Assembly (NCBI GenBank): GCA_951406725.2
Contig: OX597816.1
Location: 99,510,001 to 99,574,000, forward strand
Length of the DNA stretch: 64,000 nt
Source of the DNA: Octopus vulgaris
Lineage: Eukaryota
Direction: 5' to 3'
Positions 4,571 through 51,609 of the stretch are shown piece by piece; position 1 is the stretch's first letter, and each line of letters begins with the position of its first letter. The notes under the pieces are model-generated. The model was not told the DNA's origin and made no database searches. It was given only the letters and a program-made list of their open reading frames with translations. Made by a program: the position numbers and the translations under genes.

Positions 4571-5438
4571 TTACTGGATGTACAATGTCATTGTGCATGA
4601 GTGACAGTGTAAGTGTCTTGAGAGAAAAACTAGGTATAAGAGGCATCAGATGCAGTATGCAAGAGAGGCAAATGCGTTGATATGGTCATTTGATGTGTAT
4701 GGACAAGAACAGCTGTGTAAAGAAGTGTAAAGATGTGTAAAGCAGTGCTGATCTCTAACTGTGGAGGGAACCTATGGAAGACATGGGATGAGTTGGTGAA
4801 GTATTATCTTTGAATGTTGAGTCTCACAGTGGTGATGACTAGTGACAGAGACCTTTGGTGATATGCTGTGTTTGAGAAAACTTGTCAAGCCAAGGGAAAT
4901 CATAGTCTTGGCTGATGCTGGTGTCATATAAATGGCACCCATGAAATTGTAATTGTGACCATTGTCGGTAGCATGATCTTCGAAATGATCTTTGAATGTT
5001 GGGCCTCACAGAAGTGAGGGACAAGGTGGTGCAGCACGATCTTCAAATGTTGAACCTCATAAAGGTGATGACAAGTGACTGAGACCATGGTGACAAGTGA
5101 CAGACTATAGGTGATATGCTGCACTTGAGAAGATTTGTCAAGCCAAGTGATACCATAGTCATGTGACAATTGCCAGTCTCATGTAAATGGTACCCATGAA
5201 ACCATAGTCATGTCTATTACCCGTGTGTCATGTAAATGGCACTGATACTGGTCACACATAGGAAGCATCTATTACATTCTTGGAGTGGTTGGCATTAAGA
5301 AAGGCATCCAGCAGCAGCAGAAACCATGCCAAATTAAACTGGAACTTGGTGCAGCTCTCCAGCTTACCAGTTCCTGATAAACCATCTAACCCATGCCAGC
5401 ATGGAAAGTGGACATTAAATGATGATGATGATGATGAT
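4570..5438 (+). mobile_element. 5'-truncated, decayed copy of the RTE LINE family (ORF end, 3' UTR, (GAT)n tail) with internal duplications
   Basis: Homologous to the QERRLRWYGH...WDEVVKHDL region and to the ggagtggttggcattaagaaaggcatccag...aaatgatgatgat 3' end of the intact element. Confidence 0.85.
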
Positions 5439-6789: not shown

Positions 6790-7075
6790 AATGCTGGTGG
6801 CATGTAAATGACACCTGTGCCAGTGACACATAAAAGGCACCTGCGTTGGTGGCACATAAAAGGCACCCACTATACCTTTGGAGTGGTTGGCACTAGGAAG
6901 GGCATCCAGTTATAGAAACCATGCCAAAATGAGACTGCAGCCTGGTGCAGCTTTCCAGCTTGCCAGGTCCAGTCAAACCATCTAACCCATGCCAACGTAG
7001 AAAATAGATGCTAAATGATAATGATGATGATGAGGAGGAGGATGACGATGATGACGACGATGATGATGATAATGA
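6790..7075 (+). mobile_element. RTE 3' UTR fragment with (GAT)n tail
   Basis: Has ggtggcacataaaaggcacc sub-repeats, ggagtggttggcactaggaagggcatccag and a gat tail. Confidence 0.8.
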
Positions 7076-11000: not shown

Positions 11001-11379
11001 AATATAGTAGTTAAAGATGACTGCTCTCAACTCTAAGTTTCATACTGACAAAGTCAATCGCCAAAGGGATTGTCAGAGAATAATTTTAGACAAGTAATGG
11101 TTATTTAACAACAATGGGCGATAATAGTTTCACATTGTATAAGTCTCATTAGTGTATTGCACAATTAAATGTCAGTAAAAGAAAATGTTGAAAGCAAGGA
11201 GCATGTTCATATCATCATCATCATCATCATTTAACGTCCGCTTTCCATGCTAGCATGGGTTGGACGGTTCAACTGGGGTCTGGGGAGCCCGAAGGCTGCA
11301 CCAGGCCAGTCAGATCTGGCAGTGTTTCTACAGCTGGATGCCCTTCCTAACGCCAACCACTCCGAGAGTGTAGTGGGTG

Positions 11380-13428
11380 ATTTTATGTGCCACCGACACA
11401 GGTGCCAGACGAGGCTGGCGAACGGCCACGCTCGGATGGTGTTTCTTACGTGCCCACAGCACGGAGGCCAGTCGATGCGGTACTGGCTACGGCCACGTTC
11501 GGATGGTTTTCTTGTGTGCCACCGGCACTGGTACCACAAAGATACAAATTCCATTGATGTTCATCTATTTTGATTTGATTTGATTTGATTTTCACTTGCC
11601 TCAACAGGTCTTCACAAGTGTCACAAGAAGGAAGGAAGGTATGCACAGGTGAACTGACAACGTCCCAGGTAGGGGCCACGGGTTATGGCCTGACTAGTCT
11701 TGCCGGGTCTTCGGATGATGTTTTTATGTGTCTCCGACACAGGTGCCAGATGGATGGTGTTTGTTACGTGCCCACAGCACGGAGGCCAGTCGATGCGGTA
11801 CTGGCTACGGCCACGTTCGGATGGTTTTCTTGTGTGCCACTGGCACTGGTACCACAAAGATACAAATTCCATTGATGTTCATCTATTTTGATTTGATTTG
11901 ATTTGATTTGATCACTTGTCTCAACAGGTCTTCACAAGTGTCACAAGAAGGAAGGTATGCACAGGTGGACTGACTACGTCCCAGGTAGAGGCCACGGGTT
12001 ATGGCCTGACTAGTCTTGCCGGGTCTTCGGATGGTGTTTTTATGTGCCACCGACACAGGTGCCAGATGAGGCTGGCGAACGGCCACGATCGGATGGTGTT
12101 TGTTATGAGCCCACAGCACAGAGGCCAGTCGATGCGGTACTGGCTACGGCCATGTTCGGATGGTTATCTTGTGTGCCACCGGCCCTGGTACCACAAAGAT
12201 ACAAATTCCATTGATGTTCATCTATTTTGATTTGTTTTGATTTGATCACTTGCCTCAACAGGTCTTCACAAGTGTCACAAGAAGGAAGGTATGCACAGGC
12301 AGACTGACTACGTCCCAGGTAGGGGCCACGGGTTCTGGCCTGACTAGTCTTGCCGTGTCTTCAGATGGTATTTTTATGTGCCACCGACACAGGTGCCTGA
12401 TGAGGCTGGCGAACGGACATGATCGGATGGTGTTTGTTACGTGCCCACAGCACGGAGGCCAGTCGATGCGGTACTGGCTACGGCCACGTTCGGATGGTTT
12501 TCTTGTGTGCCACCGGCACTGGTACCATAAAGATACAAATTCCATTGATGTTCATCTATTTTATTTTGATTTTCACTTTCACTTGCCTCAAAAGGTCTTC
12601 ACAAGTGTCACAAGAAGGAAGGTATGCACAGGTGGACTGACTACGTCCCAGGTTGGGGCCACGGATTATGGCCTGACTAGTCTTGCCGGGTCTTCGGATG
12701 GTGTTTTTATGTGCCACCGACACAGGTGCCTAGTCTTGCTGGGTCTTCGGATGGTGTTTTTATGTGCCACCGACACAGGTGCCGGATGAGGCTGGCGAAC
12801 GGCCACGATCGGATGGTGTTTGTTACGTGCCCACAGCACGGAGGCCAGTCGATGCAGTACTGGCTACGGCCACGTTCGGATGGTTTTCTTGTGTGCCACC
12901 GGCACTGGTACCACAAAGATACAGATTCCATTGATATTCATCTATTTCGATTTGTTTTGATTTTTTGATTTTTTTGATTTTCACTTGCCTCAACAGGTCT
13001 TCACAAGTGTCACAAGAAGGGAGGTATGCACAGGTGAACTGACTACGTCCCAGGTAGGGGCCACGGGTTATGGCCTGACTAGTCTTGCCGGGTCTTCGGA
13101 TGGTGTCTTTATGTGCCACCGACACAGGTGCCAGATGAGGCTGGCGAACGGCCATGATCGGATGGTGTTTGCTATGTGCCCACAGCACGGAGGCCAGTCG
13201 ATGCGGTACTGGCTACGGCCACGTTCGGATGGTTTTCTTGTGTGCCACCGGCACTGGTAACAAAGATACAAATTCCATTGATGATCATCTATTTTATTTT
13301 GATTTTCACTTTCACTTGCCTCAACAGGTCTTCACAAGTGTCACAAGAAGGAAGGTATGCACAGGTGGACTGACTACGTCCCAGGTAGGGGCCACGGGTT
13401 ATGGCCTGACTACTCTTGCCGGGTCTTC
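11380..13428 (-). repeat. Tandem array of six ~333-bp units in the LINE 3' UTR
   Basis: The marker cacttgyctcaamaggtcttcacaag recurs at 11593, 11913, 12247, 12580, 12982 and 13313 (periods 320, 334, 333, 402, 331). Confidence 0.95.
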
Positions 13429-16400
13429 TCACGCACAGCATACTTCCATAGGTCTCGGTCTCTAGTCATTTCCTTGGTGAGACCTAAAGTTCGAAGGTCG
13501 TGCTTCACCACCTCGTCCCAGGTTTTCCTGGGTCTACCTCTTCCACAGGTTCCCTCAACTGCTAGGGTGTAGCACTTTTGCACACAACTATCTACAGCCA
13601 TTCTCGTCACATGACCATACCAGCGCAGCCGTCTCTCTTGCACACCACAATTGACGCTTCTTAGGTTCAACTTTTCTCTCAAGGTACTTACACTCTGACG
13701 ATTATGAACACTGACATTACACATCCATCGGAGCATACTGGCTTCATTTCTTGCAAGCTTACGCATATCCTCAGCAGTCACGGCCCATGTTTCACTACCA
13801 TGTAGCATGGCTGTACGTACACATGCATCATACAGTCTGCCTTTTACTCTGAGCGAGAGGCCTTTTGTCACCAGCAGGGGTAAGAGCTCTCTAAACTTTG
13901 CCCAAGCTATTCTTACTCTAGCAGTTACACTTTCAGCACACCCACCCCCGCTACTGACTTGGTCTCCTAGGTAGCGGAAGCTATCAACTACTTCTAGTTT
14001 GTCTCCCTGGAACGTGGTAGAAGTTGGTCTCTGCACATTTCCAGTGTTTATTGCTCCTGAGCATCTGCCACAGACAAAAACTATTTTCCTAGTTAGCCTT
14101 CCTTTGACATTGCTGCACCTCTTATGTGTCCATAGCTTACACTTGGTGCACCTTATAGAGTTTCTACCTACACCTTTTTTACAGATCGAGCAGGGCCATC
14201 TACCTGAAGTCGTTTGTGATTGGTCCACCTTCCTACTTATTAGGACTTTGGTTTTGGCTAGGTTGATTCTAAGGCCCTTCGATTCTAATCCTTGTTTCCA
14301 CACCTGAAACTTCTCCTCCAGTTCTGATAGTGACTCAGCGATTAGAGCAAGGTCGTCAGCATAGAGGAGCTCCCAGGGGCATCCTGTCTTGAATTCCTCC
14401 GTTATTGCCTGGAGGACTATGATAAATAGGAGGGGACTGAGGACTGAACCTTGGTGGACCCCAACCTCTACCCGGAATTCTTCACTGTACTCGTTGCCAA
14501 CCCTCACCTTACTAGCAGCGTCTCTGTACATGGCTTGCACAGCTCTCACTAACCATTCATCTATCCCTAGTTTCCTCATTGACCACCAGATAAGGGATCG
14601 GGGGACCCTGTCAAAGGCTTTCTCCAAGTCAACAAAAGCCAGGTACAAGGGCTTGTCTTTGGCTAGGTATTTCTCCTGCAGCTGTCTTACCAGGAATATA
14701 GCATCAGTAGTACTTTTCCCTGACACGAACCCAAACTGCATATCATCTAAGCTAACACTCTCTCTAATTAGTTGGGCTATAACCCTCTCCGTAACCTTCA
14801 TTACCTGATCCAGCAGCTTGATGCCTCTGTAGTTATTTGTATCTAGGGCGTCGCCTTTACCTTTGTAGCAGTTGACTATTATGCTGCTACACCAGTCATT
14901 GGGTATGACTCCCTCGTGTATCACCTGGTCAACTATACGGGTGACTAAGCTATAGCCGACACCACCAGATATTTTGAGCATCTCTGCAGTAATTCCTGAT
15001 GGGCCTGGGGCTTTCCCTGTTTTCATGCTTCTAATTGCCTTATCTACTAAGGAACTGTTAACTCGGATTGCTGGTCCCTCTGTTGGGTCGACATTCGGCA
15101 GACTCTCTTTATCCCATTCATTTTCTTCATTCAGCAACCTTTCATAGTGGCGTCTCCAAGCCTCTCTCTTTGCATCCTCATTTAGCGCAAGTGAACCGTC
15201 ATCCTTGCGAACACACTTCTCTCCTACCACGTCACGGTTCTCTCTCACACACTGTCTTGCAACACGAAATACCTCAAGTCTTTCATCCTCACGGCTCAGG
15301 ACATTGGCAAATTTTTCCTTATCTGCCTCCCCTCTGGCTAGATAGACCTGTCTCCTGGCTTCCCTTCTGGCAGTCTGATACACTTCCCTGCTACCACCGT
15401 TCTTCCAGGCCTTCCAAGCCTGTTTCTTTTGTCTAATAGCCCTGTCAACAATATTGTTCCACCACCACGTTATTTTGGGTCTTAAGGGGACTTTGCACCA
15501 GCCACAGATCTGGTCAGCGGCTTTCAGCAGGTTGTCCCTCAGAAGCGTCCAGTTGTCTTCTACCCCATGCGTAGCTATACTCCCTTCCATTTCGTCTAAG
15601 GCTTCAAATAACATATCTCTAAATCTCTGTCCATTCGCAGGGTCTTTAAGCTTCCAGACCCTTCTTCTCCATGTTGGTCGTCTTCTAGTCGCCCTCTTAG
15701 TCCTGATCCTAAAGTCACTAACTACCAGTCTATGTTGTGGGGTGCATTCTTCGCCTGGGAAGGTTTTGGCATTTATAAGCAGCCATCTTTCCCTTTTTCT
15801 GGCAAGGATGTAGTCGATTTGGCTAGTATGCCGGCCCGATCGGTAGATGACCAGGTGGCTTGTCGGTTTCCTGAAGTTAGTGTTGCAAACCATAAGACTA
15901 TTCGCATCGCAGAACTCCAGCAGCCTGGTTCCCTCCTCGTTGCGGGAACCATAACCGTAGCCTCCATGCACGCCATGGAAGCCCCCAGCACATCGTCCAA
16001 CATGCCCATTGAAGTCACCAGCCACAAAGAGAAGGTCCCTGTCGTTCGTCAATGATGTGGTCTGCAGTAGGGTGTCATAGAAACAGTCTTTCTGTCCATC
16101 AGGTAGCCCTGGCTGAGGGGCATAGGCCGATATAATAGTTGCTAAACTATGATGGAGCACTAATCTAATCTTAATTATTCTGTCACATACTCTGACTACC
16201 TCGATTACCTTATCTACCCATTTTTCGGCGATAAGCATGCCCACACCCCCGACCCCGTCAGTATTCCCAGCCCAGAAAATCTTGTACCTCTGTCCTTTGC
16301 CTGTGAGGAACCTAGCAGAACCTCCTCTCCACCTCACTTCTTGAATGCAGCATATATCCACACACCTCCGTTCAAGCAATTCAACGATCTCGCCAGATCT

Positions 16401-16583
16401 GCCTTTCAGTGTGCCAACGTTGAGGGTGCCAACCCTGAGGGTGTGGGTGGTGGTGGTATTGGGCCTAGTAGCGTCATGGACCTGAAAAGAAAACTCGCGT
16501 TTGGCAGGATTCATAGACAGACAATAGAACTTAAGTTCAAACCGCGTACACAACACTAAACATATCTTGCAATGAATGACCAC
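13410..16583 (-). CDS. RTE LINE ORF: APE endonuclease + reverse transcriptase with internal PHD finger (first in-frame ATG at 16514)
   Basis: APE motifs TLNVG, IQEVRW, SAYAP, GDFNGH, QIDYIL, QHRLV. RT motifs KAPGP, NYRGIKL, QFGF, FVDLEKAFD, GVHQGSVLSPLLF, YADD, FRYLG. RTE C-terminus RLRWYGHV...GRGRPRKTW. Confidence 0.95.
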   Translation of the reverse strand: MVIHCKICLVLCTRFELKFYCLSMNPAKREFSFQVHDATRPNTTTTHTLRVGTLNVGTLKGRSGEIVELLERRCVDICCIQEVRWRGGSARFLTGKGQRYKIFWAGNTDGVGGVGMLIAEKWVDKVIEVVRVCDRIIKIRLVLHHSLATIISAYAPQPGLPDGQKDCFYDTLLQTTSLTNDRDLLFVAGDFNGHVGRCAGGFHGVHGGYGYGSRNEEGTRLLEFCDANSLMVCNTNFRKPTSHLVIYRSGRHTSQIDYILARKRERWLLINAKTFPGEECTPQHRLVVSDFRIRTKRATRRRPTWRRRVWKLKDPANGQRFRDMLFEALDEMEGSIATHGVEDNWTLLRDNLLKAADQICGWCKVPLRPKITWWWNNIVDRAIRQKKQAWKAWKNGGSREVYQTARREARRQVYLARGEADKEKFANVLSREDERLEVFRVARQCVRENRDVVGEKCVRKDDGSLALNEDAKREAWRRHYERLLNEENEWDKESLPNVDPTEGPAIRVNSSLVDKAIRSMKTGKAPGPSGITAEMLKISGGVGYSLVTRIVDQVIHEGVIPNDWCSSIIVNCYKGKGDALDTNNYRGIKLLDQVMKVTERVIAQLIRESVSLDDMQFGFVSGKSTTDAIFLVRQLQEKYLAKDKPLYLAFVDLEKAFDRVPRSLIWWSMRKLGIDEWLVRAVQAMYRDAASKVRVGNEYSEEFRVEVGVHQGSVLSPLLFIIVLQAITEEFKTGCPWELLYADDLALIAESLSELEEKFQVWKQGLESKGLRINLAKTKVLISRKVDQSQTTSGRWPCSICKKGVGRNSIRCTKCKLWTHKRCSNVKGRLTRKIVFVCGRCSGAINTGNVQRPTSTTFQGDKLEVVDSFRYLGDQVSSGGGCAESVTARVRIAWAKFRELLPLLVTKGLSLRVKGRLYDACVRTAMLHGSETWAVTAEDMRKLARNEASMLRWMCNVSVHNRQSVSTLREKLNLRSVNCGVQERRLRWYGHVTRMAVDSCVQKCYTLAVEGTCGRGRPRKTWDEVVKHDLRTLGLTKEMTRDRDLWKYAVREKTRQE

Positions 16584-16694
16584 TACCTTTTATGGAAGGA
16601 GGTGGGGGTGGCGTAAGACTTGAAGTGTATCTTGCAATGAATGACCACTACCTTTTATGGTAGGGGGTGAGGGTGGCGTAAGACTTTGAAGTGT
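16563..16694. repeat. 65-bp tandem duplication in the LINE 5' leader
   Basis: tatcttgcaatgaatgaccactaccttttatgg occurs at 16563 and 16628. Confidence 0.9.
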
Positions 16695-16798
16695 ACAAGG
16701 GAGACAAGGATGAGAAAATTTAGGATTTCCTGTACCGGTGGAGGGGGTGGGAGGGCGGGTGGGGGGGGGGGTCGTGGCCCGCGAAAGCCGGCAGCCAT
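16655..16798 (-). CDS. 47-aa Pro-rich upstream ORF of the RTE element
   Basis: ATG at 16798: MAAGFRGPRPPPPPALPPPPPVQEILNFLILVSLVHFKVLRHPHPLP*. Short upstream ORFs are known in RTE elements. Translation is unproven. Confidence 0.4.
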   Translation of the reverse strand: MAAGFRGPRPPPPPALPPPPPVQEILNFLILVSLVHFKVLRHPHPLP

Positions 16799-17439
16799 TC
16801 CTTTCTTAGGAGAGAAATAGTTATTGAGAAATAGTTATTGGTATAAATACCTAAATTTTGCCTAATCTATGGTAGAAGCGTGAGCGATAAAGAGCTATAA
16901 ATTATAAATACATTTATTCTATATCTACGAGGCGTGAGACTGATCGATAAAATTTAGGGGCAAGCTATAAGATTAAATATATATTTAACACAAGACATGG
17001 GACAACGATAAATAATTAAGATGAACTTAGAATTATATGTACATATAAAAAGAATACTAGGCGTGAGGAGGTTGACTTATACAAGTCATAACAATAATAG
17101 TAAAGATAAAACAGGGTTAACTAAAAGATCAGATCAATTGCAGATAGAATATATATATATATATATATATCATAAAAAATATCATAAATACACACAAATG
17201 CATACAATAATATATACACGTATGAAAATATGTAATAAATAGTGAATTATAATAACACAAAATTGGAAAAAAATAGGATCAGTATTATAAATATGGTATT
17301 GTAAAACAAAAGGTTGAGTACTGCAAGCACAGAAGAGCATTTTATAAACATCCTACATGCTATAATTCCACCAACAAAATCTGTAGTATCACTCTTATCA
17401 GGAATTATCATCTAATTCTAATTTATAAAAAGAAGTTTT

Positions 17440-19018: not shown

Positions 19019-19060
<42 letters not shown>

Positions 19061-19078
19061 TAGGTATGTATGTACATA

Positions 19079-19249
19079 GGCGCAGGAGTGGCTGTGTGGT
19101 AAGTAGCTTGTTTACCAACCACATGGTTCCGGGTTCAGTCCCACTGCGTGGCACCTTGGGCAAGTGTCTTCTACTATAGCCTCGGGCTGACCAAAGCCTT
19201 GTGAGTGGATTTGGTAGACGGAAACTGAAAGAAGCCTGTCGTATATATG

Positions 19250-19288
<39 letters not shown>

Positions 19289-19492
19289 ATGTCTGTGTTT
19301 GACCCCTAGCATTGCTTGACAACCGATACTGGCGTGTTTATGTCCCCGTTACTTAGCGGTTCGGCAAAAGAGACCGATAGAATAAGTACTGGGCTTACAA
19401 AAGAATAAGTCCCGGGGTTGAGTTGCTTGATTAAAGGCGGTGCTCCAGCATGGCCGCAGTCAAATGACTGAAACAAGTAAAAGAGTAAAAGA
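19079..19492 (+). mobile_element. Young full-length tRNA-derived CORE-like SINE with internal microsatellite
   Basis: A box tggctgtgtggt, B box ggttcagtcc, ccttgggcaagt core, internal (TA)/(TG)n, and gtaaaaga tail. Many copies occur in the window. Confidence 0.85.
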
Positions 19493-25469: not shown

Positions 25470-25712
25470 ATCAAGCTGAGCAAAATTGCAGTTGTGGCAG
25501 AAACTGGTATCATGCAAATGGCAGCCATGCTGGTGGCATGTAAAAGCAACTGTTATGCTCTTGGAGTGGTTAGCAGTAGGAAGGGCATCTAGCCATAGAA
25601 AACCATACCAAATGAGACTGGAGTCTAGTACAGCCTTCCAGCTTACCAGCCCTGGTCAAAACGTCCAACCCATGCCAGCATGGGCAACAGACGTTAAATC
25701 ATGATGATGATA
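25470..25712 (+). mobile_element. RTE 3' UTR fragment
   Basis: ggtggcatgtaaaagc...ggagtggttagcagtaggaagggcatc...atgatgatga. Confidence 0.75.
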
Positions 25713-33130: not shown

Positions 33131-33312
33131 GTATATATATATATATATAAAGTTAGATAAGGCCAGTTTATGGGATTACCCTGGGTTTCCCATCTATAAA
33201 GCCCTTAGCTTTCTGGCATATTATCAGATCCCAAAACCTGTTGGTTTAAGGCCTCTCTAGGATATGGAGGAGGAAAGGACCTTGCTACTCAATGTCAACA
33301 GCAGACCCCAGT

Positions 33313-33580
33313 CGACTGGGGTCTGGGAAGCCAGGAGGCTGCACCAGGCTCCAGTCTGATCTGGCAGTGTTTCTACAGCTGGATGCCCTTCCTAATGCCA
33401 ACTACTCCATGAGTGTAGTGGGTGCTATTTACATGCTACTGGCACAGGGGCCAGAGGAGGCTGGCAACGTCCATGATTGGGTGGTGCTTTTTTACATGCC
33501 ACCGGCACGGATGCCAGTCAAGGCAGTGCTGGCATTGACCACATTCAGATGGTGTTTGTTTTTTACATGCCACTGGAACA
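33313..33580 (-). mobile_element. RTE 3' UTR fragment
   Basis: Near-identical to 11270-11400. Confidence 0.85.
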
Positions 33581-35101: not shown

Positions 35102-35313
35102 TTGGTTTCAAATTTTGGCACAAGGCCAGTAATTTCAAAGTGGAGATAAGTCAATTACATCGACCCCAGTGTTCAACTGGTATTCATTTAATCGACCCTG
35201 AAGGAATGAAAGGTGTAGTCAACCTTGGTGGAATTTGAACTCGGAACATAAAGACAGACGAAATGCCATTAAGTATTTTGCCCGGCATGGTAATGATTCT
35301 GCCAGGTCACTGC
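35102..35313 (-). mobile_element. Nin/Deu-like SINE with ~20-bp TSD
   Basis: Flanked by tatagctcaccaaaatgtgcat and tatagttcaccaaaatgtgtat. Confidence 0.8.
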
Positions 35314-35559
35314 TTTATAGTTCACCAAAATGTGTATATTGCTAAAAACACTTTAACAACTCAGTCATCTTAGGTGTATATAGGTATTATAGAATGATAT
35401 AGTTTACTGCTTTGTGTTCATGGCATGGTAATGATTCTGCCAGGTCACTGCTTTATAGTTCACCAAAATGTGTATATTGCTAAAAACACTTTAACAACTC
35501 AGTCATCTTAGGTGTATATAGGTATTATAGAATGATATAGTTTACTGCTTTGTGTTCAT
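35284..35559. repeat. Perfect 138-bp tandem duplication
   Basis: Units begin at 35284 and 35422 and appear identical. Confidence 0.9.
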
Positions 35560-35689
35560 GGCCAAGACATTTAAATCCCAACTCCTTTGTCCACTTTAGT
35601 TCATAGCTACCATAAGGTATTGCCCTTAACTATTGTAACAGCAATGCCATAAAATTGATCGTGAACTGTATGGATACTGATAAGCACTT

Positions 35690-43294: not shown

Positions 43295-44165
43295 GCAGGT
43301 GTCTCTATGTGATAAAAAGCTTACTTCCCAACCATGGGGTTCTAGGTTCAGTCACATTTAAAAAAGTGTCTTCTACTATAGCCCCAGGCCAACCAAAGCC
43401 TTACAAGTGGATTTGATTGAGGAAAAGGGAAAGAAGCCTGTCGTATTCTCTTTCTCTTTTTTTTCTCTTTTACTTGTTTCAGTCATTTGACTGCGGCCAT
43501 GCTGGAGCACTGCCTTTAATTGAGCAACTTGACCCCGGGACTTATTCTTTTGTAAGCCCAGTACTTATTCTATCGGTCTCTTTTGCCGAACCGCTAAGTG
43601 ACGGGGACGTAAACACACCAGCATCGGTTGTCAAGCAATGCTAGGGGGACAAACACAGACACACAAACACACACACACATATATATATATATATGTACAT
43701 ATATACGACAGGCTTCTTTCAGTTTCCGTCTACCAAATCCACTCACAAGGCATTGGTCGGCCCGGGGCTATAGCAGAAGACACTTGCCCAAGATGCCACG
43801 CAGTGGGTCTGAACCCGGAACCATGTGGTTGGTTAGCAAGCTACTTACCACACAGCCACTCCTGCGCCTATATATACATACATACATACAAACATACATA
43901 CATACATACATACATACATATGCATATCTCCATGTGTATGTGTGTGTGTTCTTGTGTGAGTGTTTATCCTCCACCACTACTGGACAGTTGGTGGTGTTGG
44001 TATGATTATGTCCCTGTGACTTTGCAGTTCTGCAAAAGCAATGGGTAAAATTAGTACCGAGCTTAAAAAACAATAAGTTACTGAAGTCAATTTGTTTGGC
44101 CAAACCCTTCAAGGCAACACTTCAATATGACTGTAGTAGAACTCAAGCAAGTAAAAGGTAAAAGA
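43295..44165 (+). mobile_element. Older CORE-like SINE split by an antisense copy of the same family
   Basis: 5' half at 43295-43445; 3' half at about 43930-44165. Confidence 0.7.
43460..43868 (-). mobile_element. Young full-length CORE-like SINE
   Basis: Highly similar to the reverse complement of 19079-19492, with CpGs retained. Confidence 0.88.
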
Positions 44166-50167: not shown

Positions 50168-50529
50168 GTGATACATCTGAATTTTTGTGGATGTATTTGT
50201 ATGTGTATTCCACAATTTTGAACATCTATTAGTACTTGTATGTTTCTATATGTGGAGAGAGGGAGTGAGAGAGAGAATGAAAGAAAGAGACAGACAGACA
50301 GATAGATAAACAAAGATAGACCAGTGGAAAAAACATTTGTTCTTAAATTTGTAATTTCACAAGGTTTGACTATCTCAAAAAGCTGTTTGCCTTATGGTTA
50401 ATATCAGATACATCAGTTTTATTTCGAGATTTCTTGCTAATAGAGAAAGAGACAGTCTCTAACTTAGATCCAAGTCTCCTTCATTGGAGTTTCAACATCA
50501 ACAACAGGGTATTTTTGTTTATATGTTGG

Positions 50530-51258
50530 ACATAAGAAGCATCGGATGTGGCATGCAAGAGAGACGTTTGCACTGGTATGGTCATGTACTACGGATGGAT
50601 GAGGAGGGATGCATGAAGAAGTACCACTCCAAAACAGTTGAAGGAATCCGAGGTAGAAGTAGACCCAGGAAAACATGATGAGGTGGTCAAGTATGACCTT
50701 CAAACGTTGGGCCTCACAGAGGCAATGACGAAAGACCGAGACCTCTGGAGATATGTTGTGACTGCAGAGACCCGACAAATAAAGTGAGTCCACGGTGTAT
50801 CCTACGCCAGCTTCACATAACCAGCCCCAGCCCATTCAAAGTTCCTTGGATCGTAGGACGACCTGCTGTGCTTGAGGAGAACTATTGAGTCAAGTACATT
50901 AACATCAAAATAAAAATCAAATGGAAATTATTGTTGTGATACCTGTACCGGTGGCATGTAAAAAGCACCATTCAAACATAGCCGATGCCAGTGCTGCCCT
51001 GACTGGCTTCCATGCTGGTGGCACGTAAAAAGCTCCACCCAATCGTGGCCATCGCCAGCCTCTTCCAGCCCTTGTACTGGTGGCATGTAAAAAGTACCTA
51101 CTACATCATGGAGTGGTTGGCGTTAGGAAGGACATCCAACTGTAGAAACACTGCCAGATCAGACTGGAGCCTGGTGCAGACTCCTGGTTTCCTAGACCCC
51201 AGTTGAACCATCCAACCCATGCTAGTATGGAAAACGGATGTTAAACAATGATGATGAT
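50530..51258 (+). mobile_element. 5'-truncated RTE copy with single-unit 3' UTR
   Basis: CGMQERRLHWYGHV...RGRSRPRKT, then one 3' UTR unit with three ggtggca sub-repeats and a (GAT)n tail. Confidence 0.9.
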
Positions 51259-51609
51259 GTATGTATGTATGTATGTATGTATGTATGTATGTATGTATGT
51301 ATGTATGTATGTATATATGTATGTATGTATGTATGTATGTGTGCAGATCTGTATGTTTTGTTTTATGTATGTATTCTCATGCATATAGTGGGATATCTAG
51401 ACATGCTCATATATATTAAATTATAAGCTTCTGGAAAGTTTTACAGATTTTTACAATTCCAGTGATGGATTGGATCTGTAGTCTTTGAATTAGCTTTCTC
51501 CTTTCTGGTTTTGAGAAGCCTAATTTCTCATGTATGTACATAGGTATGTGTGTGTGTGCTTGCACTCATGTGCATGTGTGTGTGAAAAAAACTCGTTTTT
51601 GTCTTTTAG

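What the first reader, a model, noticed from the sequence alone, without database searches (positions are those of the whole stretch)
11380..13428. Intact LINE carries a 2-kb array of six structured 3' UTR units
Seen: each ~333-bp unit restarts at the last ORF codons (gaagacccggcaagaStag). Every junction is the same, caccatcc|gaagaccc, with gaa microhomology. Units differ by a few substitutions, one ~25-bp deletion (near 11750) and one 53-bp internal duplication (12677/12730). Shared variants at about 12560-12585 and 13290-13318 hint at higher-order duplication. The related copy at 50530-51258 has only one unit. Inference: the array arose by repeated RT template jumping, by reverse transcription of a circularised 3' UTR RNA (rolling-circle-like), or by unequal crossover after one founding duplication. 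It might multiply binding sites for the ORF protein or seed a LINE-derived satellite.
Basis: partly seen in the sequence, partly recalled or inferred. Interest (0 to 1): 0.75.

Follow-up and report, generated by a model that had tools for sequence, protein, structure and literature searches.

The report
Jumping gene with expandable tail array
A young family of jumping genes in this animal genome carries a chain of repeated 330-letter units in its tail, hands the chain on when it jumps, and gains or loses units later, likely by ordinary DNA recombination rather than by the circular-RNA copying first proposed.

Summary
The array is real and is a family trait, not a local accident. The junction 23-mer occurs 1,769 times in the genome; its first 100 hits form 48 separate insertions, all ending in the same tail. 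Each of the window's six units is closest to the same-position unit of other insertions, and 95 of 103 units have their nearest relative at another locus: arrays are copied whole by retrotransposition, which rules out per-insertion rolling-circle synthesis. Among 22 sibling copies, 10 keep the six-unit order and 12 have 1-8 units through in-register exchanges; duplicated units share copy-private mutations, pointing to DNA recombination after insertion. The subfamily is a mosaic: ORF from one lineage, 3' UTR from another, with the switch in a 61-nt window holding the unit start. Units are not unusually structured and the conserved terminal ~165 nt is not repeated. How the single founding junction arose is open. 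No earlier scan note matched this sequence. Verdict: new variant of a known kind, moderate interest.

The parts
16515..17148 (-). 5' UTR, cut short at its 5' end by at least 40 nt relative to sister copies; holds a 65-bp tandem duplication at 16563-16695
13410..16514 (-). Single ORF from first Met (open frame reaches 16589): AP endonuclease, reverse transcriptase, PHD finger; no stop or frameshift
13098..13428 (-). Unit 1 (331 bp): last 19 nt of ORF with the true stop, proximal 3' UTR, ends in third 62-bp sub-repeat
12749..13097 (-). Unit 2 (349 bp)
12696..12748 (-). 53-bp mini-unit (duplication spanning a junction); present in 12 of 22 sibling copies, so inherited
12363..12695 (-). Unit 3 (333 bp)
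12029..12362 (-). Unit 4 (334 bp)
11713..12028 (-). Unit 5 (316 bp) with the 23-bp deletion shared by sibling copies
11376..11712 (-). Unit 6, runs on into the tail; one to two 62-bp sub-repeats shorter than in most siblings
11230..11375 (-). Single-copy conserved 3' terminus shared with all lineages and with short copies elsewhere in the window; likely the RT recognition region (inferred)
11212..11229 (-). (TGA)6 microsatellite end
50525..51259 (+). Older, 5'-truncated single-unit relative (~70% identical in the unit, 86% in the tail)

Best explanation
This is one copy of a young subfamily of RTE-like LINEs whose 3' UTR is a variable tandem array of ~335-bp units that all share one junction and are passed on whole by retrotransposition, with unit number changed afterwards likely by in-register DNA recombination and the array itself likely a tolerated passenger. 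Steps: (1, shown) an element joined the ORF of one lineage to the 3' UTR of another; (2, shown as one event, cause unknown) a single duplication with 2-nt microhomology copied the stretch from 19 nt before the ORF's end to the third 62-bp sub-repeat; (3, inferred) with two units, homologous misalignment multiplied them quickly, before the units diverged; (4, shown) several lineages kept transposing with arrays under purifying selection on the ORF, spreading whole or 5'-truncated arrays to hundreds of sites; (5, inferred) after insertion, unequal exchange and conversion keep adding, deleting and mixing units; (6, inferred) transposition is unharmed because the terminal recognition region stays single and intact.
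For: Junction at 1,769 places, control 0; 48 of 48 sampled loci end in the same tail and (TGA)n, 15 of 48 reach the ORF, the rest are 5'-truncated inside the array. Window units differ by 1-6 nt from same-position units at L039/L054/L059 but by 13-22 from each other; 95 of 103 units nearest to another locus. 22 sibling copies, ORF 98.8-99.8% identical to the window's: position-specific haplotypes; 10 canonical (one inferred), 7 losses, 3 gains, 2 internal replacements, with chimeric units at the breaks. Duplicated units share variants found in no other copy (L142, L151, L153, L156, L143). Lineage-level pN/pS 0.10-0.29; synonymous divergence 3.5-7.4%, like unit-to-unit divergence. Mosaic: against lineage Y the ORF differs 10.4-10.7% but the tail 1.5-2.5%; against lineage X-beta ORF 3.4-4.0%, tail 10.4-12.9%. 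Lineage X-beta lacks the first ~100 nt of the unit yet has many copies, and 9 of 30 copies with this UTR have a single unit.
Against: Losses outnumber gains 7 to 3 in the sibling set, yet four lineages kept long arrays over 3.5-7% synonymous divergence, 21 of 30 ORF-end copies carry arrays, and array lineages have the fewest private changes (0.2-0.5% against 1.0% in X-beta): this may mean the array is favoured, not neutral. Shared private variants could also come from RT switching on RNA of an unsampled source copy. The six unit haplotypes share few derived variants, which a one-step concatemer would also give. No clear target-site duplication was found, and that test was unreliable. All genomic counts come from one assembly; samples were the first listed hits, mostly on contig C1.
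Confidence: 0.75

Rival explanations
1. Unit number changes mainly during reverse transcription: the RT slips or switches template in register between homologous units of the same or a sibling RNA.
For: 12 of 22 very young siblings are rearranged, a high rate for their small divergence; the subfamily itself is an ORF/UTR mosaic; one copy has two non-homologous tandem duplications in its ORF (2 in 111 kb of 54 young copies).
Against: Duplicated units share copy-private mutations and have few unshared ones (e.g. L142: 5 shared; L156, L153 one each; L155 identical pair), so the duplications look younger than the insertions.
Confidence: 0.3
2. The array is selected: extra units raise RNA stability, RNP assembly or escape from host silencing, so array-bearing lineages outcompete single-unit sisters.
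For: Array kept in four lineages despite loss bias and the cost of a longer template; 21 of 30 copies; youngest lineages. Each 62-bp sub-repeat and the tail hold a small 5-6 bp hairpin.
Against: Units diverge at about the synonymous rate, take large indels, are not significantly structured; single-unit and unit-deleted lineages also spread.
Confidence: 0.25
3. The founding array arose once from a circular or concatemeric 3'-UTR RNA of lineage Y that the RT copied several times round before switching to a lineage X RNA at the shared ORF end, so UTR capture and array birth were one event.
For: The unit start lies inside the 61-nt window where the ORF/UTR switch must lie; no junction with the Y-type sequence behind it exists (0 hits); unit tree is star-like; single-unit sisters are not clearly basal and collapse to one unit occurs (L160).
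Against: No ribozyme core, Rfam match or strong fold near the junction; fast unequal exchange gives the same star; 9 of 30 single-unit copies form their own clade that may be the precursor.
Confidence: 0.17
4. Each insertion builds its array anew by rolling-circle copying of a circular UTR RNA.
For: Identical junction in all units; a few loci have near-identical units (7 of 103 nearest within locus).
Against: Units group by position across loci; indels and mini-units are inherited.
Confidence: 0.02
5. Local tandem expansion at this locus, or mis-assembly.
For: None found.
Against: 1,769 junction copies; same six haplotypes on many contigs; junction in an independent run.
Confidence: 0.01

Closest known systems
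RTE-clade LINEs, e.g. tobacco SolRTE (bioRxiv 10.1101/2022.11.04.512097; passages and section 11 read) and octopus RTE-2_OV (PMC9115989; passages read)
   Same: One ORF with AP endonuclease and RT, microsatellite end, frequent 5' truncation; 3' UTR split into a variable proximal part that marks subfamilies and a conserved terminal part proposed as RT recognition site (SolRTE).
   Different: Here the variable part is itself a tandem array of 1-8 units of ~335 bp that begins inside the ORF. The word 'tandem' does not occur in either paper's main text. RTE-2_OV has a 1,109-aa ORF and a 3' UTR mostly of microsatellite, so it is another family.
Ogre LTR retrotransposons with hypervariable 3' UTR tandem repeats, source of PisTR-A satellite (as reviewed in PMC9659126; passages read; Macas 2009 itself not read)
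   Same: Tandem repeats inside the 3' UTR of an autonomous retroelement, spread by its transposition.
   Different: Ogre is an LTR element; there the repeats gave a free-standing satellite, which was not found here.
LINE-3'-end-derived satellites: chicken HinfI (CR1 3' UTR plus part of ORF2), cetacean common satellite (L1 3' part), Drosophila 18HT (HeT-A/TART) (PMC9659126; passages read)
   Same: Monomer made from a LINE's ORF end and 3' UTR.
   Different: Those are fixed long arrays; this array is still inside a mobile, coding element and is short.
Mouse/rat L1 5' monomer arrays and the SVA VNTR (recalled, not read)
   Same: Variable tandem array carried within a non-LTR element and changing in number between copies.
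   Different: L1 monomers are 5' promoters; SVA is non-autonomous; here the array is 3' of the ORF and has no shown function.
Retrozymes / rolling-circle retroelements (recalled; lead also from notes e1-8663400, e1-8671912)
   Same: Head-to-tail units of ~300 nt.
   Different: No hammerhead core followed by GAAA on either strand, no Rfam hit, and units are inherited by position.

Membership tests
Non-LTR retrotransposon (APE-type LINE) | ORF with AP endonuclease and RT | tested here: met
   PF03372 and PF00078; 186 full-length homologues at E<=1e-50, best 55% identical, none with a family name
Non-LTR retrotransposon (APE-type LINE) | Dispersed copies with common 3' end and variable 5' truncation | tested here: met
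   48 of 48 loci share the tail; 33 of 48 truncated inside the array
Non-LTR retrotransposon (APE-type LINE) | Target-site duplication | tested here: inconclusive
   None clear at this locus; flanks are often microsatellite and the 5'-end walk failed at many loci
RTE clade | Single ORF, no ORF1, short-repeat 3' end | tested here: met
   No other ORF of 150 aa or more upstream in the element; (TGA)n end
RTE clade | RT groups with named RTE elements in a tree | not testable with these tools
   No named reference elements were returned; the RTE label rests on anatomy and recall
Retrozyme / rolling-circle retroelement | Self-cleaving ribozyme in each unit | tested here: not met
   Rfam 0 matches at E<=5; no hammerhead core with GAAA; an undescribed ribozyme cannot be excluded
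Retrozyme / rolling-circle retroelement | Units of one insertion copied from one template (group by locus) | tested here: not met
   95 of 103 units nearest to another locus
Retrozyme / rolling-circle retroelement | Circular RNA in cells | not testable with these tools
   No raw RNA reads offered; junction reads cannot separate circles from linear array transcripts
TE-derived satellite DNA | Long homogenised array independent of the element | tested here: not met
   At most 8 unit starts, always ending in the element's tail, units not homogenised; only 100 of 1,769 junction places were listed, so a block elsewhere is not excluded

The most novel reading that the evidence does not exclude
A LINE subfamily was born in one reverse-transcription event in which the RT copied a circular or concatemeric 3'-UTR RNA of one lineage several times round and then switched onto the ORF of another lineage, and the resulting multi-unit tail gave the new chimera an advantage that made it the youngest wave of its clade.
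Probability: 0.12. Interest if true: 0.75.

Novelty: new variant of a known kind. Interest (0 to 1): 0.42.

Why it matters
It shows a coding LINE carrying a 1.5-3 kb tandem array behind its ORF through many rounds of transposition, leaving roughly 850 short dispersed arrays (extrapolated) - the stage between a LINE 3' end and a LINE-derived satellite, caught while still mobile. Because each unit position has its own haplotype, the family is a ready-made natural assay for how often and when (during reverse transcription or after insertion) tandem units are gained, lost and converted, and for 3' UTR swapping between LINE lineages. No new chemistry or host function is shown.

Tried and rejected
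Structure: whole-unit and window folds no better than shuffles; Rfam empty; hammerhead core scan empty. Higher-order duplication U1-U2/U3-U4: units 1 and 3 are sisters but 2 and 4 are not (19 differences), so only partial. Target-site duplication search inconclusive. Raw-read runs X22 and X23 laid only 16 and 30 reads and say nothing. No RNA holder listed as such. In run X3 (organism B) one 2,359-nt contig matches the flank up to 11197 and seems to run on for ~2 kb of other sequence, which would be an empty site; run X5 is ambiguous; this was not confirmed and the age of this insertion stays open. Protein searches gave no family or host name. The window's 5' UTR did not match the region of note e1-8670260. 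ORF tree does not resolve whether single-unit sisters are precursor or collapse. The 700-nt ORF comparison dropped 10 of 52 segments by score, and L054's value there is inflated by truncation; the unit tree used 132 of 176 units, dropping those outside 300-365 bp unless last. Eight paper searches found no description of such an array in a LINE 3' UTR; repeat libraries (Repbase, Dfam, the library of PMC13282606), subscription papers and supplements were not seen, so the family may already be deposited as a consensus.

Full report
Observation. The window holds a minus-strand element from about 17148 to 11212. Its single open frame (13410-16589, 1,059 codons stop to stop, first Met at 16514) encodes AP endonuclease, reverse transcriptase and a PHD finger. 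Behind it lie six units of 316-352 bp, each restarting 19 nt before the end of the ORF, plus a 53-bp mini-unit at 12696-12748 and a 23-bp deletion in unit 5. The last unit runs into a single-copy terminus and (TGA)6. Units differ by 13-22 substitutions. Each unit contains three ~62-bp sub-repeats; the junction always leaves the third one, with 2 nt of microhomology. The copy at 50525-51259 is an older single-unit relative. The ORF is intact, but the 5' UTR is at least 40 nt shorter than in sister copies. The host is probably an octopus; this is my inference and that of earlier notes, not a tested result.

The array is a family trait. The exact junction 23-mer occurs 1,769 times in the genome, its reversed control 0 times. 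The first 100 listed hits form 48 loci, which extrapolates to about 850 insertions. All 48 end in the same tail and (TGA)n; 15 of 48 reach the ORF (92-100% identical to the window's over the matched part), the other 33 are cut inside the array. Several architectures recur (lineages A, B, C, E), each with its own inherited sub-duplications and deletions, and all with the same junction. Twenty public runs from 10 studies and four organism labels hold the stretch or part of it, and the junction appears as a joint in contigs of run X3, organism B. Mis-assembly and local expansion are excluded.

Arrays are inherited whole. In a comparison of 132 of 176 extracted units, each window unit was closest (1-6 differences) to the same-position unit of L039, L054 or L059; 95 of 103 units in multi-unit loci had their nearest relative at another locus, 7 within the locus, 1 tie; median nearest distance 0.9% across loci against 3.6% within. 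Rolling-circle or repeated jumping at each insertion predicts the opposite.

Unit number still changes. A stop-codon variant marks 22 siblings of the window copy, whose ORFs are 98.8-99.8% identical to it. Each unit position has its own haplotype. Ten copies keep the six-unit order (one by inference, L141), seven have lost units (down to one partly scrambled unit in L160), three have gained (up to eight), two have internal replacements; breaks give chimeric units in register. The mini-unit is in 12 of 22. Duplicated units share variants found in no other sibling (L142, L143, L151, L153, L156) and have few unshared ones, so the duplications look younger than the insertions: DNA-level unequal exchange or conversion is the simpler reading, although RT switching on RNA of an unsampled source could mimic it. 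The window copy is the only one of these 22 with a complete ORF, and none of 20 near full-length relatives has a frame of 1,000 codons (longest 948; 7 of 20 carry arrays).

Origin. The subfamily is a mosaic. Against lineage Y (L083, L087) its ORF differs by 10.4-10.7% but its tail by 1.5-2.5%; against lineage X-beta (L094, L106, L107) the ORF differs by 3.4-4.0% and the tail by 10.4-12.9%; X-beta and Y differ concordantly (9.8% and 11.9%). The switch lies in a 61-nt stretch at the ORF's end, and the unit start lies inside it. Of 378 copies with this ORF end and UTR start, 30 were examined: 21 arrays, 9 single units. The single-unit copies form one clade within an unresolved radiation. No junction followed by the Y-type sequence exists. 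Lineage-level differences over 1.5 kb of ORF give pN/pS 0.10-0.29 and 3.5-7.4% synonymous divergence, so the lineages were transposing while carrying arrays, and the units (4-7% apart) are about as old as the radiation. The founding junction is one event; slippage at DNA level, a backward RT jump (non-homologous tandem duplications: 2 in 111 kb of young ORF copies, both in L037) and a circular template cannot be told apart. End-to-end template jumping by R2 RT is recalled, not read.

Function. Nothing shows one. The unit folds no better than shuffles, has no Rfam match or hammerhead core, and X-beta copies lack its first ~100 nt. The part conserved in all lineages, the terminal ~165 nt, is not repeated; in tobacco RTEs the equivalent conserved terminus is proposed as the RT recognition site (bioRxiv 10.1101/2022.11.04.512097, section 11). 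Against pure neutrality: four lineages kept long arrays despite a 7:3 loss bias, and they have the fewest private changes (0.2-0.5% against 1.0% in X-beta; lineage C, three copies, gave none). Small 5-6 bp hairpins recur in each sub-repeat and in the tail, untested.

Comparison with print. PMC9115989 (passages) describes another octopus RTE with a microsatellite 3' UTR; PMC13282606 (first third and passages) counts 13 recently active RTE families without describing UTRs; PMC9659126 and PMC6947457 (passages) list satellites derived from LINE 3' ends and the tandem repeats in the Ogre LTR element's 3' UTR; PMC6007223 (passages) gives RTE target duplications of 7-15 bp and microsatellite ends; PMC4758252 (passages) names RT template switching as a means of module exchange. 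Eight searches found no report of a mobile LINE with such a 3' UTR array; repeat databases and supplements were not seen.

Verdict. Real, family-wide, mechanistically mostly ordinary: one duplication, then recombination between units, spread by retrotransposition. New variant of a known kind; interest 0.42. The bolder reading, array birth and UTR capture in one RT event from a circular template with a selective gain, is not excluded (about 0.12).

Noticed in passing
L091, L097, L100, L109 (upstream of ORF): Several relatives have a second ~595-bp copy of the 5' UTR in tandem, so the family also forms 5' monomer arrays.
   Followed up: partly
L104:1107-2390 (element sense): About 16 tandem copies of a 74-bp piece in the 5' UTR of a single-unit relative; the window's 65-bp duplication at 16563-16695 is in the same region.
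   Followed up: no
window 5255-5438, 6842-7033, 25532-25711, 33312-33556: Short older copies of the element's 3' terminus (76-87% identical), SINE-like or truncated LINEs; an ORF-end fragment lies at 4575-4889.
   Followed up: no
L079, L086, L080, L094: The 62-bp sub-repeat varies from about 2 to 9 copies in single-unit lineages too, so a smaller VNTR predates the large array.
   Followed up: partly
L037:1801-4185 (element sense): Two non-homologous tandem duplications (about 94 and 56 bp) within the ORF of one young copy.
   Followed up: partly
L033, L069, L103: Two array-bearing or related insertions lie end to end or directly in front of another element's 5' UTR.
   Followed up: no
flanks of L031-L078 and L141-L160: Many copies sit next to (TA)n or (TG)n runs on one or both sides and lack clear target duplications.
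   Followed up: no
window 35284-35562: Perfect 138-bp tandem duplication.
   Followed up: no
window 19029-19490 and 43460-43918; 333-553 and 851-1071: Inverted pairs of related repeats, 88-95% complementary.
   Followed up: no
window protein P0001, residues 800-843: PHD finger behind the RT core, also in many of the unnamed homologues.
   Followed up: partly
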